Below, in pieces: positions 1 through 61,036 of a stretch of DNA of 64,000 nt (positions are counted from its first letter, which is position 1; the number at the start of each line of letters is the position of its first letter). The position numbers and the translations under genes were made by a program. The stretch is from Amoebophrya sp. A120 (Eukaryota > Protista > Dinoflagellata). The notes under the pieces were generated by a model. It had not been told where the DNA came from. It searched no databases and saw only the letters and a list, made by a program, of their open reading frames with translations. Location: assembly GCA_905178155.1 (NCBI GenBank), contig CAJINV010000004.1, positions 11,081,655 through 11,145,654 on the forward strand, given 5' to 3'.

Positions 1-3000
1 ACACGCCGATCAGAAGCGACATGACAAAGACGGCCCCCAGCATCCGGCCCGAGGAAGTCCGTGGCGACATCTCGTCGTTGAGTTCGCCCTGGATCGTAGC
101 GCTATGCGAAACGTAGGTCGGAGCGATGGCGATGATGTTGAAGATCTGGAGTCGTGTGGAAAAGAATTTGCAATTCATTGTACCGTTTGGCGCATGTTGT
201 ATCTATCAACAGGAAGTGTACTATCACGCATGATGTGTGTGGAAAAGTTTGTAAGAACGAGACGACCATACGACTGCGCGTAGAAATGACCAAGAAGATC
301 TATTCTCAATCAATCTAGGGCTTTCTACCAGCATCCAATTGGACAAGACAAATTGTCCTTCGTGCAGCCATATCCTGTGCAAAAGTATCGCACTCGTATT
401 GCAATCATGAATCACAAATCTTTCTCTTAAGGGAAATCAGCATTGCAAATTTTATCCCTCATGCTGCGGGAATTTGTAATGCATTTATACGAGTGCGATA
501 CTTTTTCTTTTGCAACTCATAAGCCACACCTTCATTGGAGTTCGGTACAATTGCAGCGGGAAGCAGCACTTGCACCCGGTGGCGAAAAAGAGCAGGAAGA
601 GAAAGAGCACGATCCCGAAAATGGTCAGGCAAAACAATCCGAGAAACCGCACGAACTGCACCGCCGGGGCTGCGCTATAGACGGTCAGCTTTCTCCCGAT
701 GAAAGGGACCTTACTTGATGTTGTTTCTTGAGGATTCATTTGGTACGGCTGGTGCGTTGTCGTAGCACTACTACTTGGAGATGATGGCACTAGTATCGGC
801 GGTTTCACGTCCCCCGCAACCCCAGCGACCGTTTGCCACTTGGTCGCGCAGGCACTGGGATAGGCCTCGGCGGCGACACAGGTGGCAACTAAATCTCTTG
901 CGAAGTACAGGCCCCATGTCTGGTCGTCCATCCTCCGGACCGACATGTGCAGCAAGTCCGGCTCGTAGGCGCTCCAGTTCCGTTCGACGGACGACGCGGT
1001 TTGTCCACCCGCGGTGCCGGACCCCGACCCCGCGGGCAGGTTTTCCCCAGCCGCCTGGCCGCCGAGACAGCCGTGGTTTTCGGAAACGAAGACCTTTCCC
1101 GCTTCCTCTCCCGTCCCCTGTTTCATCAGACACCGCTGCTCAATGGAGCTGATCTTGTCGAAGCGCTGCGTCCAGTAGGCCAGTTGCTCGGACCTCTTTT
1201 CCTGCTGCGAAAGCTGCAGGAGAGCTGCAGCGAGGAAGTCGTAACCATTGATCAGGGCGGCTTTGAAAGGGCTAGTACTGGTCCCCTCCTGCTGGTCGTG
1301 GAATTGTTCAGTAGCTTGATCTTCTGGCTGCTCTTGCTGCGAAGAACCCACAACAGCCCCGCCCTCTCGTCGATCACTGCTGCTGCTGCTCGGTGCTACT
1401 GCTACAACTGGTGCGTTTGTTGCTTCTGGCGACTGCGCGCCACCAGATGACCCTCCTCGCTCGCGTCGCGCGTACTTCGGGGAATGCAGCAGGTACTCTT
1501 TCACGGAGTACAGTACTCTCTTTGCCGGGCGAACCACAATTTCGTCGAGTTTGACAAGCATGTGGCGCAGCGGGGAAAAAGCTGTTTTTTCGTGCGTGAA
1601 CGCGGAATCACCGTCTTCCTCCGTTGCGTCCGCCAGTGCTTCGTTGCCAACGAGGACCTGCTGCGCTATTTGCCGGTCTTTTCGTCGTGGGGCCCAGCCT
1701 CCCTCTCGTCGGAGGAGGCCCCAACCGCGCACCGGGGGACGGGTGTCAACAACTACTGGCTCCTCGTGAAGACCTTCTTCGTTCTTCTCGTAATTGCTGG
1801 CAACTGATGTTACTGCAGCAGTACTTGCTACACCCGGTACTGTAGGTATTACCGCTGCACCTGCAGCATTAGGGAAACCACTTGCTCCAGCTCCTCCGTC
1901 CAACTTGCGAGCAGAGGTTGTTGTACCAGCGGCCTCTTCCTGCAAGAAAGACGGCGGAAGCAAAGAAGGGGTCGGAACAGTACCTAAGCCATCGGACGTG
2001 AATTGCATGGCGGATGTAATTGTTCTCGGCGGCATTGATCCTGCTACCGCTGTACCTGCAGGGGGTGGGGGCGCAGCTCCCGTCGTACCTGGTGGAGTAG
2101 GTGCAGCGGTTGTTGGCGTTGAGGCCGCTATGCCAGCAGTTGGCGCTCCCAACGCTACTTGTGCGGGTGGAGCAGTAGGAGCAATGGCTTGTGGTTGTTG
2201 AGGAAGAGGCTGCTGCTGCGGCTGTGCCGGAGCAGTACTAGGTGCGCTGGCGCCTGGTGCCTGTACGATCACCGTTGTGCCACCAGGAGCAGCGGCCGTT
2301 GTTACAAATGGAGTAGATGGAGAGGGTTGTTGTACGAGTTGTGAAGATGATGGCGGTTGCTGCGGAGGAAAAGTAGCTGCTCCTGTCGCAGGTGAAAAAA
2401 GTTGCTGCTGTTGCGCTGCTGGTTGCACCACCACCGGCGTTGCTGCAAGTTGCTCCACCGCTCCGACAGGACGGAATGACGGCTGTCCAACTTGGTTCGC
2501 CTGTGTCGGTGTCCCTGCACCTGGCGGAGCTGGAAGTGCGGAGGCTGACACGGAAGGCAACTGAGGTGTCGAGATTTGTGAACTTGCTGCTCCTGCGCCT
2601 TGTTGTAATTGCAGCGGTGAACTGCTGGCTGCGGTGGGAGGTGCGCCAGAAGCTAGCGGTGCTCCAGGCTGCGCTGCCGCTGCTCCAAGAACACCACCCT
2701 CGGTTTTGGTTTGCGCCTTGGCGTCGGGAGCAGCTGTAGGGGGCTTTATTATCTCCTCCCCGGGAAGGACGTTTGCATTTTCCTCTGAAGGAGGTGTCGC
2801 CGACGTCGGACCACTTCCCGCCATCACACCTGCTGGCTGTAGTTTTTCCTCCTCCGGTGGGACGATAATTTTCTCCGAATCTATCGCTTCCGAAGAACCT
2901 CTTCCCGAACGGTCCACCTGATCCTCCGCTGCTTCCATTGCTTGTCTGGCAAGAAACTCTTGATTTTTGTCCGGCGGTACCACGGGGCCGCTAGGCGTGT

Positions 3001-8186: not shown

Positions 8187-10580
8187 CTACTGCGGGAATA
8201 ATTTGTCCGCGGTAGGTGCTACTTCTTGTTCGTTTTTCTCACCGTCGTTCTTTGCCTCGGTTGCCCGCCGTCGCGGAGAGCGACTGCGGGAACGCCGATT
8301 GTGACACAAACCACCACCATCATTAGCCATAGCAGCTGTCGTGTCGTTCATGATCTCGTTGCCTCTAGTTTCTTTATTTTCGTTCTCCAACGGGACGGAG
8401 TGCTTGGTGCTTCTAGTGCGGTCTACTTCGTACAAGCCTTCGATGTACCCGGGGCGGTCTGTTCGGTGTTTCACGTTGTCTCCCGTGAACTGCTGTTGAA
8501 ATTTCACGTATTGCCGCAACGGCCGAATCACTGTGTTATACGCCGTCACTTTTGATGTTTCCCCTCTCTTCACAAAGCTCGGCTGCCGGATTCTCTTGGA
8601 AATCTCGTCATTCCACTTGTCCAAGAACAACGCCAGCGCTTCCGCGGTCGAGTGCCCGAGAATGATCGGCGGAGGGGACGAATTAAAGTCATGGCTAGTG
8701 GTACAACTAGTACCAACAGTCGAGGAAGATGACGACGAAGTCGAAGCAGTCGCTTGTAATACATTGACAGCTGTTGGTGCAGCACCACCACCAGCACAAC
8801 CAGGCTTCTTCATCTTCAAAATCTCTGGCTTTCGCACCAGAAAGGCCGGCGCGGGAAGCGGTACGGCGGTCATTCCCTCCCGGTCCGAGGCCAGCGTGAC
8901 GCGGAGGATTTTTTTGGGAAAGCTCACCTCCATATGGAAGCGTCAGGTTTGAAATCCTCAAAGTTGAAACAATTTGTAATGCGTAAAATGCGACACAAAA
9001 AGTGACTCTATTGCAGAGGACCCATGGGAGGCAGATTATAGTCCTGGCAAGGGTCAAAAGTTGGACTGCTAACTAGCATGACAGAAGGCAGCTCTTTTGC
9101 CCAAAACCGCATGACAGACTCGCTTCCAGGTCCGGGAAAATTTGTCATGCGCCGACTACAAACTGTAGGTCTAACTGGTATCCGTTTTATGCATGACAAA
9201 CTATTTCAACTTTGACGATTTCAAACCTGACACATCCATACTCCATCTCCTCTGCGTACTTCCAAGTGGCGTATGCAGTGCAAAAGTATCGTACTCGTAG
9301 TAATTGGAATTGCAGTTATGCAATACAAATCTCGTTCTTAAGGCAAATCAGCATGAGAAATTCCAGTTGTCTTGCTGAGAAAATTTGTCATGCAATTTAT
9401 ACTAGTACGATGCTCTTGCAATGCATATGGCGTCCAAAACGACTAAATAGCGGTAGTACTTCCCCTTCACATCATTCGGGGGAGATAAATTTTCGTACCA
9501 CGACTCAGAATCTTCACCGTCCAACATCCGGGGAGAACTTCTACCAGTTTCGTTCGGAGAGGAGGCGGCGGTGCTGCTTGCCGCCGGAGTTCTAGCTTGT
9601 TGTTGGGTCGTTGTTAATTTCTCATCTGCTGCAGGAGCTCCTGCTCTTTGGATCTGCTTATTGCTCGTAGTTTCATGTTGAAAATTATGCGCGAAGACTT
9701 GATGTTTCGCCTTTATTTCTTCTCTATTCTCCTTTCTTTTCAATTTCATGGTCTTCTTGTCCCGTGGTGAGAGCCACAAAATCTGTCCTGGTAATTCCGA
9801 AATGTCCGCGGTCGGGGTGACTTCGGGGTTCTCCGTCTCGTCTTCGCACGAAGAGCTGCGCAAACCCATTTTCGCTCTCCGGACTGCGCGGATTACTTCA
9901 TCGGGGCTCGTTCCTTTGGAGGCGTTTTCCGCCCGTCGAATCGATTCGTCCTGATCTTCGAAAACTTCTTTGACCGTGAGTGCCTCTTTCGACGGAAAAA
10001 GCAACAAAGTCTTTTCCGGGTCCACCCGCAACTTCCGCTTCAGCTCATCACTCCAGCGCCGCCCCTTCACGATTTCGATCCGGTCTAAACACTTGGACAG
10101 GAAGTAGTCGGTTTTGTGTTTCTGCTTCTGCTCCTGGGGATGCTGCAGGACGATGATTTTCGTGAAGCTAGGGATCTTCAGTTTCTGCTCCGGCAACCAG
10201 GGACAGAGACACACGGTTTGTGGTCGGTCACACTTACCGCAGATTTGGCGCTTGTTTTTACTAGGTGCAGCGGCTCCTGTGCACGTGCTCGAGCTCGTCG
10301 CAGAAGGTGGTGCTGGATCATTTTTACCTGTATTAGCCGGCTCATCTTCCTGGTCTGTTCGTGTTTGTTGTACTTGGAGGGGTCGTTCTGATATGTCAGT
10401 GTGGCGTTCGTCTGAGGTGGATAACGTCGCAGCTCCTTGCTGTATCTCCGTTTTTGGTTGCGATTGAGGCTGTATTTGTTGCGGTTGCCGACCTTCTTCA
10501 TCTTTTTTGCTGTCGGCAGCCATCGCGTCATGCAGCCTTGCTCCGTTGATAGTTATTTCATGACTATCTTGCGCGCTCAT
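8187..10580 (-). CDS. DTWD2: DTW-domain tRNA-uridine aminocarboxypropyltransferase (DTWD2/TapT-like)
   Basis: CxxCxRPxxxCLC zinc motif and LQHPQE. After removing two TIR elements: VLDATWKYAEEMEVSF (DxTW motif), then FLVRKP and STAEAL. Confidence 0.85.
8933..9240. mobile_element. TIR introner, family B (308 bp), TSD CTCCA
   Basis: ~50-bp imperfect TIR TATGGAAGCGTCAGGTTTGAAATCCTCAAAGTTGAAA / TTTCAACTTTGACGATTTCAAACCTGACACATCCATA. CTCCA at 8928-8932 and 9241-9245. Confidence 0.92.
9272..9427. mobile_element. TIR introner, family A (156 bp), TSD TGGCG
   Basis: TATGCAGTGCAAAAG...CTCTTGCAATGCATA. TGGCG at 9267-9271 and 9428-9432. Splits the D-A-T-W motif. Confidence 0.92.
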
Positions 10581-11930: not shown

Positions 11931-11978
11931 AGAGCCCTAGCTGCCGTTCCTGCCAGAAAAACCCAAGTTGTAGAGCTC

Positions 11979-14900
11979 TCAGCCAGCACCTCCCCCGGCT
12001 GCACTTCTGAACGCGGCCAGCGCCGTCAAGACCTCCTCCCACCCGGTCTCCGTTTCTTGGTTGGCGCTCTCCGTTGCAAGCCTCTCCGTCGCAAGCAACA
12101 GCTGCTCTGCTCCCTCGTGGTCCGACTCCGCCACTTGATCCAGGATCGACAAAGCGATTTCTTGGAGGTCCAAAGGGTCCGGACGACACGCTAGCTCGCG
12201 CAACAGTTCCTGCTTCACCTGAACGGCATCCTCCGGCGCAGGGATTGCCCTCACCTGGGCCTTCCAGAACTCCGTGGACAAAGCGTGGTGATCAACAGTG
12301 GCGTGTTGGTGTTGCCCACCTGGTGCAGCAGGTGCCCTGTGGTGTTTGTCGATAAAATCTGCCTGTAACAGGTCCAACAGCCTTCGAAGGAAAGTTGCCC
12401 GGATCGAGGTGTATTTCTTCCCGAGGGTTTTACTAGTAGGCTTGTTTGGAAGATTTTCGCTCGCCGTTGTACCAACGTCCGCCGAAGACGACTGCAGATA
12501 GGAATTCGTCCCTTTATTCGACGAAGAAAGTGCACTGAGTGCGATTCCAAACCGCTTCAACGCTTTCGCACCCTTAGTGTTTTCTTGGTCCGCAGTGTAG
12601 TTTTCAGACGCCGCTGCAATCACATCTTGCAAGAACGCATCGACGCTTTGTTCATCTTCATCTTCAGTCGTGGGGCCGCCGGATCTCAACATCGTTGTAC
12701 TAAAAGCAGCGGCGCTCCCGGTCGACGCACGACCTGGTCCTGTTGCAACCTGCAGCTTCGCCGCGCAGACCATCCTCGCCAAATCCTGCCAGGACCACTT
12801 GTCCATCGTGATCGAGCGTACGAAACTGGTGTGCACCCCCAGCGACCGGTGCACGCCCGCGCAATTGAGGCAGAGAAAGACGCCGTGCGTCAGGCTCGCC
12901 CAGGACACCGAACTGTCCATCCTGGTGCAGTCCGCGCACTTGTGATTGTCCGTTTTCTCCCGCAGTTTGGTGAACAACTCCTGCAGAAACCCGCTATCCT
13001 GGTACAGGTGGTGACGGAGGGATTTTCTTACGGGATCTTCCCTCAGTACTGGCGTGCTACAGGAGTTCGAGCTCGAGTTGTCTTGGCGTGCATGATGTTG
13101 TACTATTTGTTCCGCGGGTGATGCGGGTTCAGACGCCGAGCTGTCGTCATCGTTCCAAGCCAAAATGGCGTTCGCTTTCGTACCGCCGGTGCCTGTGGGT
13201 GTAGTCCTGGCTGGTGGCGTACTAAGGGGAAAATTTCACAAATACAAATATCTGCAAAAATTGATGCTTAAAGGACAAAACTGCAGAGAAGCAGGCGCTC
13301 AGTGTTATGCTTTTCAGCAATTCAGGCCCTGTCGGGCATCCTTGGGAGGGGCGCCAGAGCATTCATCTCAGGCGGTCGCCATTTAACCCGACCAAAGTCG
13401 CACCAGCGCGGGCCGCCTAGCAGGGCGGCACTAGGGCTCTTGGGGCCGCGCCAGGGTGCCCGGAATTCCGGCGCCATGCGGCGCATGCGGAGGCAGTAAT
13501 AGGCCGCGGCGAATCGCCGAAAGGCGAAAATCGCATCAAAATGACGCAGAAAAATGCTCGCGGGCGACTTCTCCGGCAGGGGTCGCCGGACCCCCCTGCC
13601 TTTTCATTTGTGGAAAGTTTCCAAGCGGGAATTGGGAATTTGGCTGTTCCGAAGGGCCCCAGATCTTGGGGTCTCCGGAGGGGTCGGGTCTGTTCATTTG
13701 TGAAAAGTTTCCGAGTGGGAATAGCGTTTTTTTGCTCCAATCACGAGCTAAACGACAAACCGCATCGGCGGACTCGACGAAAAGGAAAGGCAGCAGCCTT
13801 CTGATTTTGTTGTTGAAGTATATGCATGCTCGTGGTCGTCCGGTATGGCTTCCAGCGACGCCAAACCCTCCGGACCTTGCCGGACAGAAGAACGCCGCGC
13901 GCTGTTGCTGTGCTGCTGTTCGACTCACCGGCGTTGCGTTTCGCAGACCCTGGACCCCCTCCCAGCAGCCCTGAAGCCTCTAAGGACCAATTTTTGCAGA
14001 TATTTGTATTTGTGAAATTTTCCACTCAGTATGGCGGTACAAGTATTGAAGCGGCTTTGTTGATGTCCTTGTCTACCTCGTAATCAACATGATCCGGCTG
14101 CAGATTCACTTCCTTCGGAGTAGAACCGGCCTGGTGACGAGAAGTCAAATTTATGCCCTCTAGTTGTACTGCGCCCGTGGTCACGGCGACTTTTTCCGCG
14201 AGCCCAACCTGCCCTAGAACTGCGGTGACCTGCGCAAACACCTTATCGACGGTTGCGGCAACGAATTTCTGACTGACTGTCTTGTTCGCTGACAGACCAA
14301 GCAGCTCTTCCCCGCCCCGCGCTTGCGAAATTTGCGCCGCTGCGGGGAACAGTTCTTTCGTGGTGAAGTCGAGAAACTGCACTAACTGCCTGTATAACTG
14401 CCGCCTTTTCACTGCGATCCGGTTCTTCAACCCCTCCAAATCACTCCCGTGCACGTGCGAAAAGTGGTCTTTCGCCTGGTGGACCAAGGCGAGTAGGTTG
14501 CACTGCACCATCTTCTGATCGGTTTTCGCGATCAGCTTCTCCATCGCCTCGTCGATTTGCTGCGTGAAAGATTGCGCAATGTAGTTCTCCTGGCCGGACT
14601 GCTTGGAAACCTGGAGGGCGAGGGACTTTTCTTCCGTGTCGAGGAAAGCCAGCTTCAAGTCGATCTCCTCTAAACGCTGTAGAAGTTGCTTTTTTTCGGA
14701 GTCGAGTTGTATTCGCTGCGTGCGCAGCTCGTCCAGCTTCGCTATCGCGGCCGTGCCCTGGTCATGAATGTCGTTGACGACCTGGATTTTGTTTGTACAA
14801 TAAAGAAAAGTGGGATTCATCGCATTTTTATGTGCTGGATCTTCATCATGAGTGACATCTACATCAGGAGCATGATACAGAACGGCTATATCAATCTAGG

Positions 14901-17900
14901 TACACATTTTTGGATAGACACAGCCTTATCATCTCCTCCCACTTAGTACCTCTTTTCTCCGTCGCTCCAAATCCGCCTGGCTGAGGCTCAATTTCTTCAC
15001 GATGGCGTCTGTCTCCGCCATGTTCTTGGTCAGGGATTCCACCATGCTCGAGCTTTCCACCACCGCAGCCTTCCCTTTTTTCCGAACGTTTTCCGTTCGC
15101 GCTTGGAGTTTCAGGACCATCGTCAACAGCAACAGCAACTTGTCCTGTGCAAAAGTATCGCACTCGTATAAATGCAAATGTTCGCTCGTTGTGGATCGGC
15201 TCTGCCGACCGGGTAACCCATCGCCTCACATACAAAGGACCGACATAGGCGAACCCCGTTGCGGGACATACAAATTGGCCGAACGGAAGGGCCCTAAGCG
15301 CTACATACATAGTTCACCCTAAGCGCCTACCACTTCGGTCGGGACTGAGTCTACCTGGTCCTGGGGGTCTACAGCGCACTAGCCCTCTGCTAGCATAAAC
15401 AGATTGGGCTCTACAAACTGATCTAACTTCTTGCAACAGTAAGGCCATCACAGAGGTGCGCTAAAACGGGTTCGGGGCGCTCCGTACGGAAGGGAGCCTT
15501 TCGACGCGGCGTACACGAGGCAAATCTTGTTCCCGAGGCAAATCAGCATTACAAATTTTATTCCTCATGCTACGGAAATTTGTAATGCATTTATACGAGT
15601 ACGGTACTTTTACAGTTCATACAACTGCTCCACGGACCTCGCGCACGCAGCGAGTTTCGTCACCCAGTTGTCTTCGTGCAGTCTCCTTTGCAGCAACAGC
15701 TTTCTGGACACGGTTTGCGCCCGCTCCGCGTTTCGTAAATCCTTCTGATCAGTCACGGTCTGCTCGAGCAGGGGCAGGACCAAGTCCCGCACCAGCAACG
15801 CGAACGTCGTATCTTCTACCCCATACTCCCTATGAATCACGCTGTTTTTCGACCGATCGTCCGCGTTGAGCAGAGTGGAAGAGAAAAAGATCCCGCTGCT
15901 CCTCGTGCGCGAGAACAAACCTGGGCTCTGGTCGTCCCCAGAAACGAGGTTCATGTATTGCGGAAGGTTCTGAATCTGCACCGACCCCGGGCCGGAGAGC
16001 TCGGGAAATTGCGAAGATGATGATCCTGCTGTAGAAGACCCGTTGCTCTTAACGTTACTGCTGGTGGAGCCACCACCTCCGGAATAATTTCCGGATGATC
16101 CATTCGTGATTGCAGCAGGGTTGGTCGAGGAGCTTGAGCCTCCTTTTTGGTGATAGTACCTCGACGACGCGTTTGGGAGATTTTCACTGTTGTACTGATC
16201 TCCACTGTAGCTCCTGCCCCTACTTCCGCCCGCGACAGCGGAAGAAGACAACAGTTTTTGCGGACTGCCGTCCTGATTCACGTTCGATCCCACTGAGCTG
16301 CAAATTTCGCTCAGTCGCATCTCTAAGGTTTTGATTTCCTTCTCGACCAGCGGTGCATCGCGCTGACGCAGCAAGGTGCAGGTTTGGCCGGTGCCACCAG
16401 CGGGGGCCCCACCAGCCGCACCCTTATTTCCACCTTGCAGCTCCACCGCAAAAGCCGCTGAAAAGTCGATCACGCCTAAATGGTCTTGCTCCGAGTCCTT
16501 CAGCCAGGAAAGAACCTGCACTGCCTGCTTGGTTTGCTGCAAAGCCTCTAGCAGAACGCCGTTCAGTCTGTTCGTCCGGAGCGTCAATTCGAAAAACTCC
16601 AGGCACGTCTGGAGAAATTCGGGCGGGTAGTTGCTGCTTTTCTGCTCCAGAACTGCCGGAAAATGGTCCTCCTGGACCAGTAGCTGCGCTTCGAGGTTAA
16701 CAGCTTCTTTCTCACGATCAGGAGCTGCAACCGTCATACTCGAAGCTGCCGTCGTGGTGCTTTCTGTCGTGTCGTCTTCAAAAGGCGAAGAGCTGGACGG
16801 TCTCGCGGGGACTCCTTCTTTCAACGTCTCCGCGCTTCGAGGGTGGTTCTTGATGTTTCCAGAGGAGTGAAGATCATCTTCTTCGCTGTACGTCCGTCGC
16901 CTGTCTCTACTACCGGTTGAGGATGACCCGGCGGCGCTTGTGGACGACAAAACGCTGTCCCCGAATGGGTTACTGGAATTTGCGCTATCTCCAAAGATAT
17001 CACTTCGTCGATCCCTTCCAGGCGACCAGGCTGAGGGGTTTCCGGTTTGCTTTTGCATTTGCTGTGCCTGTGCCGTGGCAGTCGCATGAATTTTTTCACC
17101 AGCTGGTCCCACCTCCACTGGTCCGGCGTCTGCACTTCTCGTCGGCACCTCCGCCTTTTGTTCGTCTGTCGGTGACCGCCGCGTCGGCGTGGGCACGAAA
17201 AAACCGCCGTCCGTTGCGTCCGTGCTTGTGATCACAGCTGCTCCGGTGGAAGAAAAACTGGCAACGTCCGCAGTCGGAGAGACCATGTCTCCGAGCGGCG
17301 GTTTCGGTGGCGCTTTCAACTGCACCGCACGCGCCGCGGGTGCGAAAACAGAACTGGATGTTGATGAAGCTGGAGTAGCGGACAGTTTCTTCACCGTGAT
17401 TCCACTTGTCGTGGACATCCCGTTCGGTCCCGGTGGCGGTGGTGGGGACAGCCTCGCCGTTCCCGCACCACTTAAAGCTCCTGCTCCACTTCCTGACGCG
17501 GCCCCAGCGACAGCGGTCCTTTCCGCGTCTAGGCCAGCAATGTGGGAGAATAAAAACTCTATCGCCTGCGTCCGTAGCAGAATCTGCCGAAAGCTGAAAA
17601 TCTTCTTGGGTTGCAGTTTGTCATGGATCGCAAAGGCGGGCTGATCGATCAGTTGCTGGGCGAGGTGAAGCTGCAATGCGCGATAGCTGGAAGCCGATCC
17701 AGATGGAGATGATCCCGCATCATCAATCTGATTGTTCTTCTTCGAAACGATGCCAAGCAATTGGTGGCTTACCGCGCTGGCCGCCAGGTCCTCCGCCGGT
17801 CGGACCAAGGACGCAATCCACTTCCTGAGCAGATTCTGCGCCGCAGCCAGGTCGTGGTGCGGCTGCTTCGCCGCCTCGGAGACCAGTGCCTCCTCCAACT

Positions 17901-41079: not shown

Positions 41080-42162
41080 GATGGGTCTTTCTGGGAAGAA
41101 CAAGAACCTCTACTCAGAGTTGGAACTGGTATTCGTGGTTGTCCCTCGCTCGTCGGTGGTGGATCGACTTCTTCTTCAGTGAAAACTCGGGTCGCTGCTG
41201 GTCTTCGCGTGTCGGTGTCGCCATGGGATGTTCTTTTACTTTTATTCACTCGATAATGATAAACTTCTAGGTAAAAATTTCAGCCAGTTAACTTTGAATT
41301 TCTGAGGAAAAAAGCGAATGGGATCTAGCTGTAGAAGGCCGTCGCTGTATGAATAAACCGTAGCCAGGTATTCTGACAAAACCTCAGAAACAGAAGCACG
41401 ATTCTGTGATGAAATGAAAGGAGCCCTGTTGACAGATTCGATATTGGAATAAAAGGTTGCTACTCTGGAATCGCTATTGCAGCTTCGCTTCTACTAAAAA
41501 ACATATCAAATCCGCACAGTTTCATCAGCGCTAGTTTTTCATTTCAGTAAATCGAATTATCAGAAATAAATCAGCTCGCGCGACAATTCTAGCGCGAAAC
41601 TTATGAATCGACATCGCAAAAATGGATCGGTACGCAGTGCGTAGTCGGTTTCTCATGAACTGCGGTCTTTCTTGTCTCTGTTTCTGAACTTCTTTTGGGG
41701 CCTGGCGTTATTTGGAACGCCACGTCGGACACGCCCAGCAGCAAAGACGAAGTCCTCCAGCAAGAACGAAGTCGAGTTTAAGGAAAAGAGGTTGATCTTG
41801 ACGTTCGATCAGCCACTGACGGCAATTTTGTTCGCGATTTGCTGAACGACAAAATAATGAAACGCGGTTTTGAAGCAGCAAAAGAACACTCTGCGAAAGG
41901 TTTGCTGGCGACAAAATGCGAAAGGTTCGACAGCCGCGGGGGCCAGTCGACGTCACGGCGCAGAGCGATGATCTTATTCTGATGTTTTCCTCTCTCTATC
42001 TCAGCCTCGGGTAGCTCACCACGATGGACGTAAGTAGTCTTCAGCAGCGCACAGAAAAAAAGTTCGATTGGGAAAAAATCGTGAATAATGTGAAATAGTT
42101 TTGCACGAAGCTGCGAATGTTGACAGCAGACAGTCCGCAAGATAAGCGTCATCACAACCACG

Positions 42163-44485
42163 CTATGCGGACAGAACTGTGTCCAGCATTCCCAGTAATG
42201 GTCGCAAGGTCTTTTCCTGGAGAGACAATTCCCGGCCAACTTTGTCGCGGAGAAGGTTGATAACCTGCATTATCCTTTCGTTTTCCGCCACAACGGCGCC
42301 GTTCGCGTCTACCACCGCGTGAAATAGGCTCACTATCAATCGCCGGAAGGTCACGGCCTCTTGCACGTCGATGACCCGGAGGACCCACTGCAAAATATCC
42401 TGAGTAAAAACGTACCCACACCAGAGTTGTCATGCAAATCTGCATGCCAAAAAAGTTTGTCATGTGGAGCGCCATGAGAGGCATTTTCTAGTCGTCCTTT
42501 GGAATTTGTGATGCTACAATCCGCATGATATACTGGATCTGTGATGCTGCTGAACTAAGTACCTAAACAGGATTACAGCACGAGGAGAAACTTGTCATGC
42601 CAAACGACCAGAGCTGGGTGATTTGTCTAGCAGATTCCCCATCTTGACTCTGGTGTGGGGAAGTTGCTTCAAATGATACAAAACCTGCAAGCACACCGTC
42701 TCCGGGAGGTTTTGGACCGCTTGGTGCAGCGCTGATCGGGACTCCAGTTCGTCCAAAAAGGACAAGGCGTAGCTCAAATTTGTGTTCTTCACGATCGCAA
42801 TCTCCAGGGCTTTTCTGTACTGGAAGTTCTTCAATGCGCTTTCCACCTGGTTCAGCTTTTGCTTTTTCAACTGAATCACTTCGGTCACCGATCCGTCCTT
42901 CTCGATGTCCGGGACTGGTTGCTCCGCGCCGCGCTTGTAGTACCTGGCGGTTAACGGCAACCCCCTTCCGGGGGCTTTGTTTTTGATGATCTTCCGCTTC
43001 TGATCCCCCTGCTTGCCGTTGTTGTTTAAATTCTTTTTCCGGACGCACCAGCTTCCGTTCTGCTGCGCGGTCGCGATCAGGTCGTCGGTGAAGAATTTTC
43101 CGAGTCGGACCGCTGTGGTGTCGTTGTTGTAGGTGAAGAGCGGTGTGTAGTCCGCGCTGTCCCACACCCGGTTGGTGCCGTCGAGGGAGGAGGAAAGGAG
43201 GTAGCGGCCGGAGGGGCTGACGTCCACATGACTCAAATCTTTCGTGTGGTGCTGACCGCCGAAAGTTGCGACGACGGCTGATGTGGAAGTTGTTCATAGG
43301 ACGATCGTTTGATAGCGTTCTTTATTTCAGCAAAAGACTCATTTGACATCAACATGATGATCCCAATCGCATTTATTTCACCTTGTGGTTGCGACCACAG
43401 TTCTTGTTATCAAGCTTACAAGGCTGGTTCACATTCTTCAAGCGGTTTGTAGTTTTCAGACCCAAAAGACAATTGATTGCCGTAATTTCTACCTGTGTCC
43501 GAGCTCATCCTTACGTCGAAAACCCGCATGTTGGTCCCCGCTGAGGCGACAAACATGGTGCTGCCGGGGTAGAACTGGACGCAGCTCACCGGATCCAAAG
43601 ACGTAGTTCCAGCCTCGCTATTCCCGTAGCTGTAACTGCCCACACACCCGTTATTGTTTCCTCCTGCTGATGTTGAACTCGATTGTCCGGAAGTACTAGC
43701 TGTTCGCGCATTAGAATTGGACACCCGGCTGTCCCAGATTTTGCAAATTCCCTCCGCACCGCCCGTGAGCCAAATGTTACTCTGGTCGGGGCTGGGGCAG
43801 AGCGCCTGCACGAAATCGGCGTGCGCGTGGTTCCACGTCATGATGGACCCGGTTCCGGTGGAGGAAGTGATGTCGTAAAGGCGCAAGGTTCTGTCCTTCC
43901 CGCCAGACAAAATTTGGGTTTTGTTAGTGGAAAAGCCGCAACACGTTGGGGTATTCGTGTGGCCCCGGAGACGACGAAGGACGCTGTTAGGCGGAGGTAT
44001 GGAGTTGTCACATGCAAAAACCAAACGATCATGACCGGAACAATTAGACCAAAAAGTTGGACGAGCAATTACATCCACATCTCCAACAATAACAAACTGA
44101 ATCGTCAAAAGCTATAGAAGAATTGACGTATTTATGAAAATCTGTACCTTCCCTCGCTCCATTCTATCACTGCGAGCGAGCCTCCTGCCTCGCCTGCGAC
44201 GAGCAGTTTCCCGTCGTCCCTCGCGTGCATGCAGGTTGTGAAGTCCTTGAACTTGTTGATCTGCAGCACTTGCTCTTTCGTCCGCAAACTCCAAAAGGAG
44301 ATCTTGGTTGAGTGCGCAACGGCGAACTGTCCCTTCTCCGCATTGTAGGCCAGGCCGGTCACCTCGCTGTCTTCCTTGTTTTCCACTCGTTTTCGATAGT
44401 TCGCAAATTCGCTGCCCGTTTCGGAGGAGGCGTGCAGTGCCTTGGCACCGGGCCGGTACAGTTGCTGCAGCCGAACGAATTCCAT
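42163..44485 (-). CDS. UTP15: U3 snoRNA-associated protein 15 (WD40 + UTP15 C-terminal domain)
   Basis: KFKD..RDDGKLLVAGE, LRRLRGH, HADFVQ, LKNFQYRKAL, ELESRSALHQAV, KVGRELSLQE..LLGMLD. GT-AG introns 43984-44147 and 43278-43492, plus element 42396-42678. Confidence 0.85.
42396..42678. mobile_element. TIR introner (283 bp), TSD CAAAA
   Basis: TATCCTGAGT..CCCACACCAGAGT / ACTCTGGTGTGGG..CAAATGATA. CAAAA at 42391-42395 and 42679-42683. Join LQVL|QWVLRV. Confidence 0.88.
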
Positions 44486-45253: not shown

Positions 45254-45344
45254 TTTCAGATCCTCATTTCATTCGGCGCATTTTTTCCGATCCTCGTTTT
45301 ATTCGACACATTTTTTCAGATCCTCGACTCGTTTATTTCGACGC
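45254..45344. repeat. Intergenic tandem repeat, ~30-bp unit x3
   Basis: Three degenerate copies of TTTTTTCAGATCCTCGTTTTATTCGACACA. Confidence 0.7.
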
Positions 45345-50518: not shown

Positions 50519-53500
50519 CTAGTCACTATCCGATGAAGATGCTTCATTTTTCTGCGCCATCTTTTTAATGCTGCGTCCGAATGCTGTGATTTTCTTGATC
50601 ATCATACCATTTGCGCTTGTGCTCGTCGCTGTACGACCTGTGGTGCTACTGCCACTTCTCTCCTGCTCCACCTCGGGATAATAATTGTACCCTCGACCCG
50701 TCCCAGAAAATAGAACAGCTTCTTCTGCAAACGGCTCATCCTGCGAGAAGAATCTTTTCCGCGCTGGCCGGGCGTCTTCAGGTGGTCGTGAGGTTTCTTG
50801 GTATACTGTCTCTTCGTCCGCAAAGATGTTCTTGACCACGTCGTGGTTTCTGTTCTGAATCTGATCCTGCTGCACATTATTTTTGCCCTTCAATATCACC
50901 ATCGTCGTAGGACTCGCACTCGGACTGCTGGACGCAGGGTTTAAAATTCGAGACTTTGGCTGAGCTATCGTCACCGACGGCGATGTTGACGCGGATGAGG
51001 AACCGGCTTTGGCTTTGGAGGTCCTGGTTCCGGGTTGCTGAGTGGGCACCGCTGGCTTCCGAGGCAAGGGCTGTACAGCTCCTTGTGCTACAACTCCCAC
51101 GCGTTTCATATTCGCCCCAGTTCGCGAGCTGGAACTGCCCCCTCTCGCGCTCGGACCTCCGGCCGAAGAGGACACGGCGGTCCGCACCGAATCTCCTGCC
51201 CGCAAAGGTGAAGCCAGCTGCTCCGCTCTACGCCTCTGCATCGCGCTTGGGCGGTTTGATTCACTCAAATGGGGGGCGAGGTCGGTTGTCACCATGTGAT
51301 GCTGTACAGGCGAACCAGGACCAGCTTCTTGCTGATTCATTTGAGCTGCAACAGCACCGGCTACGACCTTCGGCGCAGCGAGCCGGCTTGCTTTCACAGC
51401 TGGAACACCAAGATGAACACTGGCATTTTTACTACTTCCAGGACCACGCTGCGCAGCACTTGTTCTACTACCCCTGGATAAATAGTTGGAACGCTCGTTG
51501 CGCGCCTGCGCGAGGTGTTGCTCGATTTCCGCCTTCTCCTCGGAAATCATGCCGCGCAGCTCGTCCGCGACATTGACGTAAGTTTCCCCCGCATCCTTGA
51601 TATCCGTATGCAGCTTGTTTTCTTCGTATTCCTTCTCTTCGAACAATCTTTTCTCTTCCAAGCCTGTCACTGCGGTCGATTTGGCGTCGCTGATGATCTT
51701 CTCTAGCTGCCGCAGTTCCTTCTCGTCCGTTATAGCTTTGGCTCCAGGAGAAGAAACATCTTGTGGGGATGTGGATGAACCGAGCAAAGCCAAAGGTTTC
51801 TTCTTGTCCGGCGAAAGACTCCTTTCGAACCGCGCGGTCGCGATTGCCTGCTGCGCAATGTCCGCTGCAGTGGGGAGAGGAAGCTGCAACAGCGGTGGAG
51901 CTGCTCCTGATGTTGTGCTGGCCTCGCCGGCCACAGCGGCCTGGTCCGCTGCTTGGTCTTTCTGCATTTCGGCGTAGTATCAAATGCAAAAGTGTCTGGG
52001 TCTGGAAGCGTGCAAGGTTTGTCATGCACATTTTGCATGACTCCTGATGTCTGCGATGCATGCCCTAGCATCACAGACCTTGCGAGGGCTTTCTGATGCC
52101 GATACCGCATGAGAAATGCCCTCTCGCCGTGGCCAAAACCAGACCTCTTTTGCTGTTCATGCAATACAGATTTTTGGATAATGCAGACGCAGCATCACAA
52201 GTTGCATTGTTCAAGACCCAGACATTTTTACATTTGATACGTAGAGCCGATCGGCCACGACCACCGCCGACGTCTGCATAGTGTGCTCCTGTTGTGAAGA
52301 CGGCAAAATAAACTCTGTATCGTTTTTGATGCCCCCCGGAGCCAGAACATCAAAGATATCTTGGTCCTGCTGGTCTTGCAGCATTTTCTGGGCCACCATG
52401 TCACACACCCTGCCCGCGCGGTCGTGCAGAGAGAGAATGATGTCGCTGTACTTTAAGTGGCGTTTCTTCAGTTTTTCGTACTTTTCCTGCAATTTGTCGT
52501 ACCCCCCGCCCAAACGGATCTTCAGCTCGTCCCGCTCCCGCTTCATGATCTCAAAGGACTGCTTGTACTTTTGCAGCTGGATAGTTTGCTTGCGCATGTT
52601 CTCCACCTCCGCTTCCAGCACGATGCGCTGATCGCGTTCTTCATCTAGATCCCGGTTCAGCCGCTGCAAGTGCAACTTGAGCCCCTTATCATACGGAAAA
52701 GCACGACGACGACGCCCGTATTACCAGAGAAACAAAAAGATGAACTTGGCAATGATCTATGATGCCTTTATTTAGCGAACAATCTTTTACTTTTTTTTAG
52801 TGACTCTACAAACTTGAAAAAAAATGCTGCACAATCAACGAACTGTCTATGCTTTTTCTGCTACAATGGGTGATGTCAGTAAGTACTTTCCTGTGTGATA
52901 GCCCTTCACCTGTGCCGGCGCCTCGCTTGTTCCATCAGGTAGAAGAAGGTCTTCATCTTCATCCCCATCGTCCTCGCCTACTGTCTCGCGTAATCTCGAG
53001 GACTTCAGCGTCCCCTTCGCTCCAGGCAGGTCGGAGCTCTGCTGCGCACTGCTCCGCTTCAGCCGGTCGCTGTTCTGCTTGGCTAGTGATCTGGGCGTGG
53101 TCAGCTTTTCCCGGACAACGGCTTTATCGGCGGGCGCGTCGTGCTGCTCTTCGGCCCTGATGAAATTAAGCATTTGTTTTGACCACATTTTTATTTTGGA
53201 CCTTATGTTGACATTATTCAACTGGTTAATGTCGAAAGTTTTGCTCGCATCTCTGAGTGCGCCAATTTTGCGCACGACCGAACCAACGCAGCAGGAGCAG
53301 CAAGCGCATATTTATATACCCAACGCTAACGCAGCAGATGAAAGCGGCTATACTTATTACAAATTCATACTTTTTTGCCAACTCCGCAATGTTCTTCGAG
53401 ATCGTGGAGATCTTTCCTCGCAAGTCGCTCCGCTCGGAGTTCATACGCGGCACGCCAGGCTTTCGCGGTTGCTGCTGTCTTTTGCTCACCCCTGCTCGGG

Positions 53501-56657: not shown

Positions 56658-59600
56658 CTAGATCTGGATTTTTCCGTTATCGTCCCCCTGTACGCTGGGC
56701 CCGACCTGCAGCAGTTCCGCGCAGATCTCCTTTATCCTGGGCTCTGTCACTTTGCCACTGATTTCCTGCAGGCTTGCGGCGAGTTTAGTTTGGAAATCGT
56801 ATTTCAGCGAGACACTGGAGTCGTAGAGCACGTTTCCCATCCCGACCAGAACCTGTAGGTGAGGACGAGAAGAATGCTGTGCAGCTTGGCATCTTTTTCA
56901 CATGCAACAGCAGGAGTACAACGACGGACAACAACATCTTACTACAGATAAAAAAACAAGTGGAGGTATCACTATGGTGCGCATAGTGTACGATACCCTA
57001 TATAGCGCTTCGAAGTCCTCCGCCACCGTTCCGTTTTGCAGAACTTTGCCCGCATATAGTTTCAGCAAATCCAGCATTTCTGACCTTCCCTTTAGCTCTT
57101 TTCGGTCCGCAAACACCATCGTCAGGTTCATCAGGGTCGTCGCGAGGCTCACGCGGACTAACTTATGCCAATCGACTTTGTCTCCTGAGATATGCATCGC
57201 AAAAGTAGTATCAAGTCGCACGAATTCGCTACAAGAAATTAAATGTTGACGAGAAACTTTTCTATAATATAAGGAAGAGATGATGATGTGGACTCTCCTG
57301 CCATGCAGATGCAGTTGAAGACGTCGGCAACTCAAGTTTTATTGTCCTCATGCCAGACTGCAAGTCGAGGTTGTACTATGTACGAGTCCGATATTTCTAA
57401 ATTCACTTTTGCGTTGGATATGAGGAACTCGCTATCAGCTCCCCAATCGCTTCCAGCAAATACCCTCGTTTGTCGAACAGCACCGCCCTTGCCGTGAAAC
57501 TCGCAAACACGTTCGCCAGCCACCGCGCGCAGCTGATGCCCAGAGGGGATTTCAAGTTCGTTTTCAGCGTTTTCAGAATGAATGCGATGTAGCTGTAGCC
57601 GCGGTCGGTGCCCTTGAAGATGTCGGCTGAGTCCGGGTGGAGGAGGTACAGTATCCTGTACAAAAGTATCGCACTCGTAGTAATTGCAGTCATGCATTAC
57701 AAATTTTTTTCTCAAGGCCGATCCGCATGACAAATTTTATTTCTCATGCTGGGCTAATTTGTAATGCAATTTCTATACTAGTACGATGCTTTTGCAATTC
57801 ATATACAGGCGCCAAACGTCCACGACCGGAAAGAGTTTCTCCTCGGGCCAGCTGCCGCACTTCTTCCAGATTAAATCCCGTTCCACGGGGCGAAAGGACT
57901 TGGACTTGTTCTGCACTTTTCCCATGCCCTCGTTGAAGTGGTCGAGCTCGATCGAGTCCATGCGCTTTTCCGTGTCGTCTTCTGCGAACTCGCCGTTAAA
58001 CTCGAGGATCTTGCCCTTGGCGGCGTCTAACCTGTGGTCGTGTGAAGGGTAAAAATTATGTGCGTAATTTGACCAAAGTGAAAGTACATGACGGAGAAGG
58101 AGTTGACAAAAACATTTTTACATTTTTGGAGGAGAAGGGTAAGTATACTTCTCGCGCATGCTCTTCGTACAAAACAAAGTTGAAATAGGATGCATCAGCC
58201 TAGCTAGTAGAACAATTCAGTAGTACTTCCCCTGGTCAAAGAAAAGCGGCTGGTCCACGGGAAAGTGCTTCATTTTCGGCTTTCCCGAACTACTTGCCGA
58301 CGGGGTCGGTGCCGACGTAGGTGCTGCGGGTCTACTGCTTGGTTGACTCCTACTATTTGAGCCTCCGGCCGCGCTCGCACCCGCAGCGCCTCCAAGGGTT
58401 GGGGCGGAACTGTTTGTGCCGGTTTGTTGACGCAAGAAGGCGGTGATCTGTTCTATCATGGACTTGTGAATGTTCTCCCTGGCGCAAAACTTCTCGGCGG
58501 TGACTAACTGGTTATCACCCTCATTGTAGGGAAGTTTGGCAGTTTTCCCGCCCTCGCCCACCTCAACGTCAAAGACGTAGTCGTAGCCTTGCTTGGGGAA
58601 GAATTGGTCGCCTTCGTACTCCGTTTTGGGCTTTCCGGTGACCTCGCCGATTAAGTCCCACTGAACACCGTTCCAGCTGTACGCGTGGATGGTCCGCCCG
58701 GTCTTAAACATCTTGATCTCGCCCTGATGTAGTAAGTAGTAAGTACTTGTAGTGGTTTTGAAAAAAGTATCGCCGCTTCTGTATACTGGAGTTCTTATCG
58801 TCGGCATTTACATTTTCCTTCATTTGGAATCTACCAATCATGCCAAAAAAGTTAGTACGTTTTTCTTCCCTCTCACACTGCCCATTTCCGACACATCCTG
58901 CACCCCGTCCAGCGGTACCCCGGCGCCCTGCTTACTTGCTTCCGCGGCGGCCGACACCGCGTCGCTATTTTGCCTCGACCTCAAGTCGTCCGATGCGAAT
59001 CGCACCGGGTCCGTGGTCCATATCCGGACGATGCCGTCCGCGCAGGCGGTGACCACATCGCCGTTCGGGAGCGTGGACACGCCCCAGATCGTGTTGGAGT
59101 GCAGGATGGACTGCAGGCACTGAGAGTTGTCCAAATTCCACACCTTTAGCAGCCTGTCGTCACTGCCGCTGTAGAGTAACTTGTTCCGCTCCGTTGTCGC
59201 GGTATTTTCCGAAAGCGCGAGGTCGAAAATGAAGCTCTCGTGCCCGCTCAACTGGGCCATCTCCAGCCCATCCAACGTCCAAAACTTTATCTGGGAATCG
59301 TTGCTGCAGGAGACCAGGGAGGTGGAGTCGGTGTTGAACAATATTCTGCGCACGATGTCCGTGTGCCCCTCCAGCGTGGTCTTGGGCTGGTCCGCGCCAT
59401 TTTGGAATATCTTTATCTTCGCGTCCTGGGAACCTGAATATATATGTAGTAAATTCACTTTGATGATCAACAACGATCATACTAAAAAGATCACGTACTG
59501 AAGCTGTATTATGTGGTAACAAGGCGTGTAAATCGCGTAGTGGTGCGCAACTTTTTTGGGCGGGACCACCCAATTTTCAATTCAGAGTTTAAGCGTCAAA

Positions 59601-61036
59601 GACCCTGCTCGTTCAAAGATGTAGTTTCAGGTAGTAGACAACTAAGAACCACATCACCTGTCGCGATCTCCCCGGTAGGTAGCAAGCAGAGCGTAACTGC
59701 GTGTGTCCCGGCGTCGATTTTCCGGACCATGCCGCCCGTCAAAATGTCCCACACGCGACACGTCCCGTCCCAGGAGCCGGAATACAGGTGCGCTTGCTGC
59801 TCGACTAAACTGCACACCGCGCCTATTGAGAGGAAAAATCCCCCCTCCCCATATTGAAAAGGCATGTTTCCGAAAATTTGTGTTGCTGATTTGAGCCTTA
59901 ATTCCACCTGATATCCGTAGGCCTCGTTGGGGGTCCCTCACCCCCAACACGCCGAACTTCCTCCTTCCACACGCAGCGTCGGAGGGGTCGCACGTAGCCC
60001 TGTTGCTGATTTGAGGTCGCAAATCACAGTTGTTTTGCAAGAAGACAAGGGCAGAAGCTTCCGCCCCATTATGGAAGCGATTTGTCATGCTGTTGGGCCT
60101 AAAGGCGAGCCGCTTGCCATGCTGAACAACTAGACGCATGCGCCCCTACCTAGCCTGGGGATCTGACCGCAGTGCTTTCCTGCAATACAAAGCTGATTTG
60201 TGTACTCAAATCCAGCATCAGAAATTTCGTTTTGATATGGGGAGGGGGTATTTTTCTTTTTGATAGCGCCTTCGTGGCCCTGGAACGTCAGCATGCGGGT
60301 GCCAGATATAACCTGCTCAGGTGTTACAATCTCAAACGTTACAATAGAATCTGGAATTTGTGTCGCATGATGAGCATGACAGACTCGCACAGCGTTCCAC
60401 CTTTTGCAATACAAATTTCGCCAGATTATAGTGCGGATTGGGCCGCCAGAACTTGTCATGCGCAATCCTGTGGGAGTAGGCTAGGTCATGCACTCTTGCA
60501 TGACAGATTGCCATATTCTATTGTAACGTTTGAGATTGTAACAGCTGAGCGCGTTATACCAGAGTCGAGGTCGATCTTGAAGATGGTTTTTTCCTTGCCG
60601 CCCGTGTAGAAATACTTGTCCTTAATGTCGGCCGAGTCGCATATGGCGTACACGAAGTCGGAATGGTGGTGGAGCCTGAGTAGTACATATTTTTGAACCT
60701 TCTAGTACTAGTAAGTACTTACCTGCCAGTAGCATGCTGCTGCCAGAAGTGAAGCCGGCAACCATTCAGCTCGTTGGATTTTAGTATGATAAAAGAAATT
60801 TTCTCGGTGTCAACAAGAATGCGCGGTTTTTGTCATCAATAAATTCGATTCTCCTACCTCTTGTCCAGGTCGAAGTGCTTGACACTTTTTCCATCTTCCC
60901 CTAGCACAGGCTTGAACAAGCACACCAGCGCGTCGACGCCGCCAGTCGCAATGAAACCGTTCTTCAGCACACAGATACACCGCACGGCCTTCTCGTGGCC
61001 CTGCAGCTCCTGGCAGAGCTCCAGGTCGGCGTTCAT
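56658..61036 (-). CDS. PLAA: Phospholipase A2-activating protein / Doa1 / Ufd3 (WD40-PFU-PUL), 10 exons
   Basis: WD40 repeats (GHEKAVR, GHEGAVCSL, SGSWDGT, GHTDIVR). PFU YDYVFDVEV..KLPYN. PUL EALYRVLVGMGNVL. GT-AG introns 60676-60857, 59434-59657, 58724-58858, 58032-58226, 56853-56996, plus four TIR elements. Confidence 0.93.
57191..57420. mobile_element. Decayed TIR introner (230 bp), TSD TGAGA/TGAGG
   Basis: TATGCATCGCAAAAGT / ACTTTTGCGTTGGATA. Flanks at 57186-57190 and 57421-57425. Join ASSS|GDKVDW. Confidence 0.82.
57652..57803. mobile_element. TIR introner, family A (152 bp), TSD TACAG
   Basis: TATCCTGTACAAAAGTATCG...CGATGCTTTTGCAATTCATA. TACAG at 57647-57651 and 57804-57808. Join WRLY|LLHP. 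Confidence 0.92.
59824..60265. mobile_element. TIR introner (442 bp), TSD GCGCC
   Basis: TATTGAGAGGAAAAATCCCCCCTCCCCATAT / ATATGGGGAGGGGGTATTTTTCTTTTTGATA. GCGCC at 59819-59823 and 60266-60270. Join GHEGA|VCSL. Confidence 0.92.
60307..60558. mobile_element. TIR introner, family C-like (252 bp), TSD CCAGA
   Basis: TATAACCTGCTCAGGTGTTACAATCTCAAACGTTACAATAGAAT / ATTCTATTGTAACGTTTGAGATTGTAACAGCTGAGCGCGTTATA. CCAGA at 60302-60306 and 60559-60563. Join LDSG|TRMLTFQGH. Confidence 0.93.

What the first reader, a model, noticed from the sequence alone, without database searches (positions are those of the whole stretch)
371..60558. 21 exon-inserted TIR elements that must be removed as non-GT-AG introns, all following one rule: TAY...RTA ends plus a 5-bp TSD
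Seen: 21 elements (371, 8933, 9272, 13220, 15141, 25920, 26273, 26792, 27109, 27511, 27736, 28119, 31810, 35219, 35536, 42396, 51978, 57191, 57652, 59824, 60307) from many unrelated TIR sequences. Each starts TAT/TAC (one TGT), ends ATA/GTA and is flanked by a 5-bp direct repeat with no sequence preference (18 perfect, 3 with one mismatch). In every case deleting the element plus one repeat restores the frame, including essential motifs. Sliding the junction through each repeat never gives GT-AG; only 59824 allows GC-AG. I found no intact copy between genes. Known: non-canonical introner elements with inverted/direct repeats are reported in Amoebophrya, and structure-defined nonconventional introns occur in euglenids; the removal mechanism is unresolved as far as I know. 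Inference: a non-U2-type precise-excision system, either RNA-level (hairpin-guided) or DNA-level (like ciliate IES excision), reads a terminal stem plus a fixed 5-nt offset.
Basis: partly seen in the sequence, partly recalled or inferred. Interest (0 to 1): 0.92.

Follow-up and report, generated by a model that had tools for sequence, protein, structure and literature searches.

The report
Known hairpin introners of Amoebophrya
Small hairpin-shaped jumping elements sit inside 22 coding spots of this marine parasite's DNA and are missing from its RNA where that could be checked; they are the already published non-canonical "introner" introns of Amoebophrya, likely cut out of the RNA inside their 5-base flanking repeat by machinery that is still unidentified.

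Summary
Observation confirmed, but already published for this genome. The window is Amoebophrya sp. A120: a public A120 PP1 protein equals my seven-element excision, 345 of 345 residues. All 21 elements are real; a 22nd lies at 52687. Farhat 2021 described these introner elements (TAT-starting inverted repeats, short direct repeats, U1 not found), and Gozashti 2025 lists one family as Ginger-like, 5-bp TSD, TA/TA ends. RNA contig lengths fit removal of element plus one repeat for 3 elements, piece ends fit 2 more; DNA contigs hold the unexcised form. Added here: the 5-bp repeat is strict (85 of 100 perfect in a second assembly); no cut register shows splice signals; both orientations occur; the repeat copy next to the hairpin carries the A/T allele in 13 of 15 mismatches, suggesting a cut inside the repeat; an internal GCAT(G/T)ACA motif is shared across families (18 of 22; 227 of 237). 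The enzyme is untested; a modified spliceosome is slightly favoured over a separate machine. The scan noted similar elements earlier in another dinoflagellate. Verdict: already known; interest 0.33.

The parts
371..521 (-). Introner, family F1, 151 nt, TSD AGCCA/AGCCA; in a 1023-codon ORF without Pfam hit
8933..9240 (-). Introner, family F2, 308 nt, TSD CTCCA; DTW-domain gene
9272..9427 (-). Introner, F1, 156 nt, TSD TGGCG; DTW-domain gene
13220..14031 (-). Introner, 812 nt, TAC/GTA ends, TSD TGGCG; ArfGAP-domain gene; size matches the 808-811 nt A120 families fam38/fam196 of Gozashti 2025 (sequence identity not tested)
15141..15621 (-). Introner, F1 with enlarged interior, 481 nt, one end TGT, TSD CAACT
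25920..26226 (-). Introner, F2, TSD GTCGA; PP1 gene; RNA contig piece ends at 25914, next to the repeat
26273..26525 (-). Introner, F3, TSD TCAGT; PP1 gene
26792..27000 (-). Introner, TSD AAAGT; PP1 gene (IHGGLS|P)
27109..27323 (-). Introner, bulged TIR, TSD CCGCT/TCGCT (synonymous mismatch); PP1 gene; spanned whole by one DNA contig
27511..27679 (-). Introner, F1, TSD GATAT; PP1 gene
27736..28037 (-). Introner, F2, TSD TGTCG; splits the PP1 metal-binding motif GDI|HG
28119..28436 (-). Introner, F4, TSD CAGCA; PP1 gene
25783..28625 (-). Host gene: PP1 catalytic subunit, 345 aa, all seven introns are introners; identical to the public A120 protein P0051
31810..32095 (-). Introner, TSD CTTCT/GTTCT (Q/E mismatch); RNA contig length fits removal of 291 nt; public protein P0162 has E, i.e. 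the downstream repeat base
35219..35470 (-). Introner, F3, TSD AAGAC; RNA contig length fits removal
35536..35684 (-). Introner, F1, TSD GACGA; RNA contig length fits removal
42396..42678 (-). Introner, TSD CAAAA; UTP15 gene; RNA contig piece ends at 42679, at the TIR
51978..52239 (-). Introner, F3, TSD CGTAG; long ORF without Pfam hit
52687..52900 (-).
57191..57420 (-). Introner, TSD TGAGA/TGAGG (S/F mismatch); PLAA/Ufd3 gene, PUL region
57652..57803 (-). Introner, F1, TSD TACAG; PLAA gene; orthologues align without gap
59824..60265 (-). Introner, TSD GCGCC, one register reads GC-AG; PLAA WD40 region
60307..60558 (-). Introner, F4, TSD CCAGA; PLAA WD40 region

Best explanation
These are the published introner elements of Amoebophrya sp. 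A120: short elements with TAY...RTA inverted ends and a 5-bp flanking repeat, likely inserted by an integrase-type (Ginger/IS3EU-like) transposase, present in the DNA and absent with one repeat copy from the RNA where checked, and likely removed from the pre-mRNA by a modified spliceosome that is guided by the predicted end-to-end hairpin and likely cuts inside the 5-nt repeat. Shown: structure, strict repeat length, frame restoration, absence from RNA for 5 elements, lack of splice dinucleotides in any register. Inferred: transposase origin of the ends and the repeat (about 0.85); RNA-level removal for all (about 0.92); hairpin as the signal (about 0.75); cut at 1-4 nt into the repeat, perhaps at a sliding position (about 0.6); catalyst a U2/U5/U6 spliceosome with lost or divergent U1 (about 0.5). 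Because the repeat is duplicated, any in-register cut inside it yields the original coding sequence, which is why insertions in essential exons are tolerated.
For: Identity: P0051 (A120) equals the 7-element excision 345/345; P0162 (A120) matches 400 of 400 modelled residues across 35536 and 35219; Farhat describes A120 IRs starting TAT, DRs of 3-5 nt, 29,850 repeats. RNA: one 5454-nt contig of run X3 lacks GT-AG introns and its gaps of 498 and 236 nt are matched exactly by exon models that remove 35536, 35219 and 31810 each with one repeat; pieces end at 25914 and 42679. DNA: contigs of run X1 run through 14 element ends at 41-44x with no break at the junction. Second assembly: 85 of 100 TIR-defined elements have a perfect 5-bp repeat, 0 of 100 at 6-10 bp; 158 of 202 look coding after removing one repeat against 85-99 of 202 for frame-shifting controls. 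Any GT-AG register in only 10 of 159. Both orientations occur, 59:40, so the signal is symmetric. First terminal pair has probability 0.6 or more in 17 of 22 folds. Register: TIR-adjacent repeat base is the A/T allele in 13 of 15 informative outer mismatches, p=0.007; P0162 carries the downstream base at 31810. Spliceosome: 83 of 89 proteins and U2, U4, U5, U6 found, U1 RNA not found in A120, while an Amoebophrya with GT-AG introns has U1.
Against: No junction sequence was read base by base from RNA; 17 of 22 elements have no RNA evidence of my own. X3 is RNA by inference (it lacks GT-AG introns), X1 may be the sample the window came from, and contigs drop rare variants, so rare DNA excision is not excluded. 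The terminal TAT is not better conserved than the rest of the TIR (2 of 291 against 24 of 1940 rare variants); 4 of 22 elements are not predicted to form the terminal helix; folds had no shuffle control. The A/T asymmetry could come from repair at transposon ends; middle repeat positions give no direction (3:3 and 3:3). The public proteins are gene models, not reads. No base enrichment at any cut position, including G before TAT (42 against 46.6 expected), which is hard for a spliceosome. Farhat found no transposase in A120 and I found none. 44 of 202 elements in the second assembly were not coding-like by my crude model (right strand in 19 of 22 window cases).
Confidence: 0.5

Rival explanations
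1. A separate, non-spliceosomal RNA machine (structure-specific endonuclease plus ligase or a dedicated protein complex), as proposed for euglenid nonconventional introns, recognises the hairpin and perhaps the shared GCAT(G/T)ACA motif and cuts at a set distance from the stem.
For: No splice dinucleotide at any register; orientation does not matter; a long stem would hide the bases a spliceosome reads (inference); Euglena introns depend on a 3-bp terminal pairing with fixed spacers and are reported as circles; internal motif in 18 of 22 and 227 of 237 elements.
Against: No such enzyme was sought or found; U1 RNA is undetected just in the strains with these introns, which points to change in the spliceosome; the motif lies on both strands at many positions and is absent from 4 of 22 elements, so it may be a DNA-level transposition site.
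Confidence: 0.36
2. The elements are cut out of the DNA before transcription, like ciliate IESs.
For: Precise loss of element plus one repeat is what a transposase with homology-directed rejoining could give; only one DNA run was examined.
Against: DNA contigs hold the unexcised junctions at the same depth as flanks, one spanning 27109 whole; a single nucleus without a separate germline would lose the elements for good (established knowledge); copies have aged in place (3.9% mismatch per repeat position).
Confidence: 0.04
3. The apparent splicing is a reverse-transcriptase jump across a hairpin between direct repeats, and the genes are really broken or read otherwise.
For: Hairpin plus direct repeat is the classic substrate for template switching (recalled); all RNA evidence, mine and published, is cDNA.
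Against: Retention stops the frame in 22 of 22, seven times in a PP1 that is 79-80% identical to orthologues and gap-free at all seven junctions; over 60% of A120 introns are of non-canonical type.
Confidence: 0.03
4. Ordinary splicing at nearby GT/GC-AG sites removes most of each element.
For: Frame-keeping GT/GC-AG pairs exist within 40 nt of both ends for 22 of 22.
Against: They would add or delete residues in invariant PP1 and PLAA motifs, where orthologues align without gaps; RNA contig lengths fit exact removal.
Confidence: 0.01

Closest known systems
Introner elements / non-canonical introns of Amoebophrya sp. A120 (Farhat et al. 2021, PMC7789003; read: abstract, sections 5, 10, 11, 12, 16, passages, supplement part 3 and legends)
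   Same: Same organism, same elements: IR starting TAT then about seven variable bases then A's, short direct repeats at the borders (5 bp in the Fig. S19 example), mean length about 240 nt, no consistent splice dinucleotides.
   Different: The paper gives DRs as 3-5 nt, variable, and leaves the border unknown; here the repeat is strictly 5 bp when measured from the TIR, the cut is narrowed to inside it, and a shared internal motif is noted. Figures were not visible to me.
A120 introner families of Gozashti et al. 2025 (PMC12130899; read: passages, and 22 of the 58 A120 rows of supplement file 8)
   Same: TIR DNA families of 149, 252, 305, 808-811 nt match sizes here; fam38 is annotated 'Ginger, 5-bp TSD, TA/TA termini'.
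   Different: Most families I saw are 'TIR DNA, Unknown' with automated TSD 2-5; the 5-bp TA/TA rule is not extended to all. 36 rows and supplement files 13-14 not seen.
IS3EU/GingerRoot DNA transposons (PMC10045372, PMC12730594; passages read)
   Same: TA..TA ends; fungal IS3EU end TAYGG..CCRTA, as in 8933, 25920, 27736, 28119; TIRs over 30 bp.
   Different: TSD usually 6 bp there, 5 bp here; no transposase seen here.
Euglenid nonconventional introns (Nomura et al. 2025, PMC12501133: abstract, passages, section 8; review PMC11282704: passages)
   Same: No GT-AG, paired ends, direct repeats that make borders slidable, likely MITE origin.
   Different: Motif CDG/CHG with 3-nt and 5-6-nt spacers and a purine at the exon start; here TAT/ATA with spacers that sum to 5 and no exon-base preference; unrelated lineage.
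Canonical introners of Micromonas and Aureococcus (review PMC11282704, passages)
   Same: TIR plus TSD elements that become introns on insertion.
   Different: They carry or co-opt GT/GC and AG; these do not.

Membership tests
Amoebophrya A120 introner elements | Genome is A120 | tested here: met
   two public A120 proteins 100% identical; GC 51.2%
Amoebophrya A120 introner elements | Terminal IR starting TAT, variable bases, then A run | tested here: met
   position counts
Amoebophrya A120 introner elements | Short direct repeat at exon borders | tested here: met
   18 perfect and 4 one-mismatch 5-bp repeats of 22
Amoebophrya A120 introner elements | Removed from transcripts at non-GT-AG borders | tested here: met
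   5 of 22 by RNA contigs; 10 of 22 absent from public protein models
Amoebophrya A120 introner elements | Repeated in the genome | tested here: met
   families in window; element depth in the DNA run thousands of times flank depth
IS3EU/GingerRoot superfamily | TA..TA (TAY..RTA) termini | tested here: met
IS3EU/GingerRoot superfamily | 6-bp TSD | tested here: not met
   0 of 100 and 0 of 237 perfect at 6 bp; 5 bp throughout
IS3EU/GingerRoot superfamily | Autonomous partner with IS3/IS481-like DDE transposase | not testable with these tools
   no genome held; records behind loci not searchable; ORFs of 13220 listed only
U2-type spliceosomal intron | GT/GC donor and AG acceptor | tested here: not met
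   GT-AG 0 of 22, GC-AG 1 of 22; any GT-AG register 10 of 159
U2-type spliceosomal intron | Branch point and lariat | not testable with these tools
   GCATGAC resembles a branch core but lies on both strands at many distances
Euglenid nonconventional intron | N3CDG...CHG N5-6|R code | tested here: not met
   ends are TAY...RTA; no purine bias after the repeat
Euglenid nonconventional intron | Excised as full-length circle | not testable with these tools
   needs RNase R or circle sequencing
Ciliate-type IES | Absent from the transcribed DNA | tested here: inconclusive
   unexcised form at full depth in one DNA run; contigs cannot show rare alleles

The most novel reading that the evidence does not exclude
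Amoebophrya A120 has a second, non-spliceosomal splicing system: a protein bound to the GCAT(G/T)ACAAAT motif shared by otherwise different transposon families, together with the end-to-end hairpin, excises any 5-bp-TSD transposon from mRNA in either orientation with a sliding cut inside the duplication, making exons immune to this transposon class; it arose independently of the euglenid system.
Probability: 0.2. Interest if true: 0.85.

Novelty: already known. Interest (0 to 1): 0.33.

Why it matters
The elements were published for this genome in 2021, so the discovery is not new. How tens of thousands of introns without splice signals are removed precisely is still open in the papers I could search. 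The single rule (TAY...RTA plus exactly 5 bp), the mismatched repeats that act as natural markers of the cut position, and the shared internal motif turn that question into specific tests that existing RNA-seq can partly answer.

Tried and rejected
No whole genome was held. No listed holder was on record as RNA; raw RNA runs X10 and X11 laid only 92 and 221 partial reads on element pieces, none on the genes, so they say nothing. The joints table was filled by repeat cross-matches of the DNA run and showed no RNA joint. My prior idea that the cut lies one base before TAT, giving a GTATG-like donor, got no support from base composition (G 42 against 46.6 expected); codon-phase bias (72/47/40, p=0.005) is compatible with it but is not seen in the 22 window elements (8/8/6) and depends on my frame calls. 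Codon-likelihood of mismatched repeat alleles was uninformative. Orthologues do not decide S or F at 57191 (variable loop); no A120 PLAA protein was returned. Extra conservation of the terminal TAT: not found. Rfam: 0 matches in the window. A 17-of-25 scan for decayed ends gave noise only. Roy et al. 2023 was not held. Literature blanks: IS3EU + Amoebophrya 0 papers; Amoebophrya + GCATGAC 1 paper, on strain AT5, listing only; Amoebophrya + direct RNA + intron + splicing mechanism 0; GingerRoot + introner 1 paper, listing only. Rows dropped before counts: 35 of 237 elements before (21 with over 2 repeat mismatches, 14 with short flanks); 65 more before (uncertain strand); the library was enlarged with perfect-repeat elements, so its 182 of 237 is biased, whereas one search is not.
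Full report
Observation. All 21 elements are at the stated starts. Their ends were recovered from inverted-repeat match and flanking repeat; 27109 needed a bulged alignment and ends at 27323. Eighteen have a perfect 5-bp repeat, three one mismatch. A motif scan found a 22nd element at 52687-52900, and shuffled windows gave nothing comparable. All host genes are on the minus strand. Removing element plus one repeat opens the host frame in 22 of 22, and keeping it gives a stop inside the element in 22 of 22. No register reads GT-AG; one reads GC-AG and one AT-AC. Fourteen elements belong to four families.

Organism and prior description. A PP1 exon matched a public Amoebophrya sp. A120 protein at 100%, and my excision of all seven elements in that gene gives the same 345 residues. 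A second A120 protein matches the gene holding 31810, 35219 and 35536. Farhat et al. 2021 (PMC7789003) report over 60% non-canonical introns in A120, inverted repeats starting TAT, direct repeats of 3-5 nt, U1 RNA not detected, and a border that 'remains unknown'. Gozashti et al. 2025 list A120 families as TIR DNA and label one 'Ginger, 5-bp TSD, TA/TA termini'. The finding is therefore already known. Figures of both papers and part of the supplements were not visible and may hold more of what I report as added.

RNA or DNA. On 24500-43500, run X1 behaves as DNA of the same strain (flat 41-50x) and its contigs pass 14 element ends without a break at the junction, one spanning 27109 whole. Run X3 lacks GT-AG introns, so it is spliced RNA. 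Its 5454-nt contig leaves gaps of 498 and 236 nt that are met exactly by exon models removing 35536, 35219 and 31810 with one repeat each, with the remaining borders on GT and AG; two other pieces end at the repeats of 25920 and 42396. Contigs drop rare variants and X1 may be the source sample, so rare DNA excision is not excluded. Junction bases were not read from RNA, and 17 elements have no RNA evidence of my own. Orthologues align without a gap at all seven PP1 junctions and at two PLAA junctions; at 60307 two of three have a one-residue gap beside it and 57191 lies in a variable loop.

A larger sample. One TIR, used as an exact pattern, returned 131 loci from metagenome contigs (organism not determined, families shared with the window). 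Of 100 elements defined by TIR alone, 85 have a perfect 5-bp repeat, 94 at most one mismatch, none a repeat of 6-10 bp. Of 202 usable elements of all families, 158 look coding after removal of one repeat, against 85-99 for frame-shifting controls and 218 of 415 random nearby positions. In 159 oriented elements no cut position is enriched for GT or AG beyond composition, and 10 allow GT-AG somewhere. Elements lie in both orientations, 59:40 after removing references.

Where the cut falls. Among 30 elements with one repeat mismatch, 17 are at the outer positions (12 expected, p=0.048), and in 13 of 15 strong/weak cases the copy touching the TIR has A or T (p=0.007). If freed sequence drifts to A/T, as the lower GC of A120 introns suggests (46.5% against 56.3%), both TIR-adjacent bases are intronic and the cut lies 1-4 nt into the repeat. 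The public model at 31810 carries the downstream base, in agreement. Middle positions give no direction, which would fit a sliding cut or simply small numbers. Repair errors at transposon ends are an untested alternative.

What is read. The first terminal pair forms with probability 0.6 or more in 17 of 22 folds; positions 4-7 are often unpaired and a long stem follows. TAT is not better conserved than the rest of the TIR, so its constancy may be the transposase's demand. The ends resemble IS3EU/GingerRoot (TA..TA, TAYGG..CCRTA) but the repeat is 5, not 6, so this works like such an element without passing membership. A motif GCAT(G/T)ACA, often followed by AAT, occurs 46 times in 18 of 22 elements against 0.6 in shuffles and twice outside, and in 227 of 237 elements of the second assembly, across TIR types and on both strands. 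I did not find it described (sections read). It may serve transposition or removal.

Mechanism. Most likely a transposase makes the ends and the 5-bp duplication; the transcript folds end to end; a modified spliceosome, lacking a recognisable U1 RNA, cuts in register inside the duplication and restores the exon (0.5). A separate euglenid-like machine is close behind (0.36). DNA excision, reverse-transcriptase artefact and nearby canonical sites are unlikely. Earlier notes of this scan report similar elements in another dinoflagellate; I did not check them.

Verdict. Real, striking, already published for this genome; the enzyme is unknown. The refinements make the open question easier to test. 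Novelty: already known. Interest 0.33.

Noticed in passing
   Followed up: yes
inside 18 of 22 elements; L001-L131: Internal motif GCAT(G/T)ACA(AAT) shared across TIR families, on both strands, 1-5 copies per element.
   Followed up: partly
window 32175-32182 and 61209-61216: The only copies of the motif outside elements, each as a head-to-head pair; the first lies about 30 nt from the AG of a GT-AG intron (32150-32338). Remnant or branch-like site.
   Followed up: no
window 25783-28625: PP1 gene whose seven introns are all introners; A120 has a second PP1 (P0061, 71% identical).
   Followed up: yes
window 31889-31955: Perfect 33-bp palindrome inside element 31810.
   Followed up: no
window 8933-9427: Two elements separated by a micro-exon of about 26 nt; similar TIR-to-TIR neighbours appear often in the DNA run.
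   Followed up: no
window 13220-14031: Longest element, lacks the shared motif; size fits the A120 families said to have integrase-like homology; its ORFs were listed but not searched.
   Followed up: partly
whole window: All genes examined are on the minus strand, as in the co-oriented blocks described for A120; GT-AG donors seen start mostly GTAC or GTAT.
   Followed up: no
L071:372-1484: A call of two elements nested in a third, beside a PP1 paralogue; may be mis-paired ends.
   Followed up: no
run X10 on window 26494-26527: 89 raw RNA reads from another locus keep an F3 element end, so some transcripts in that run retain an element.
   Followed up: no
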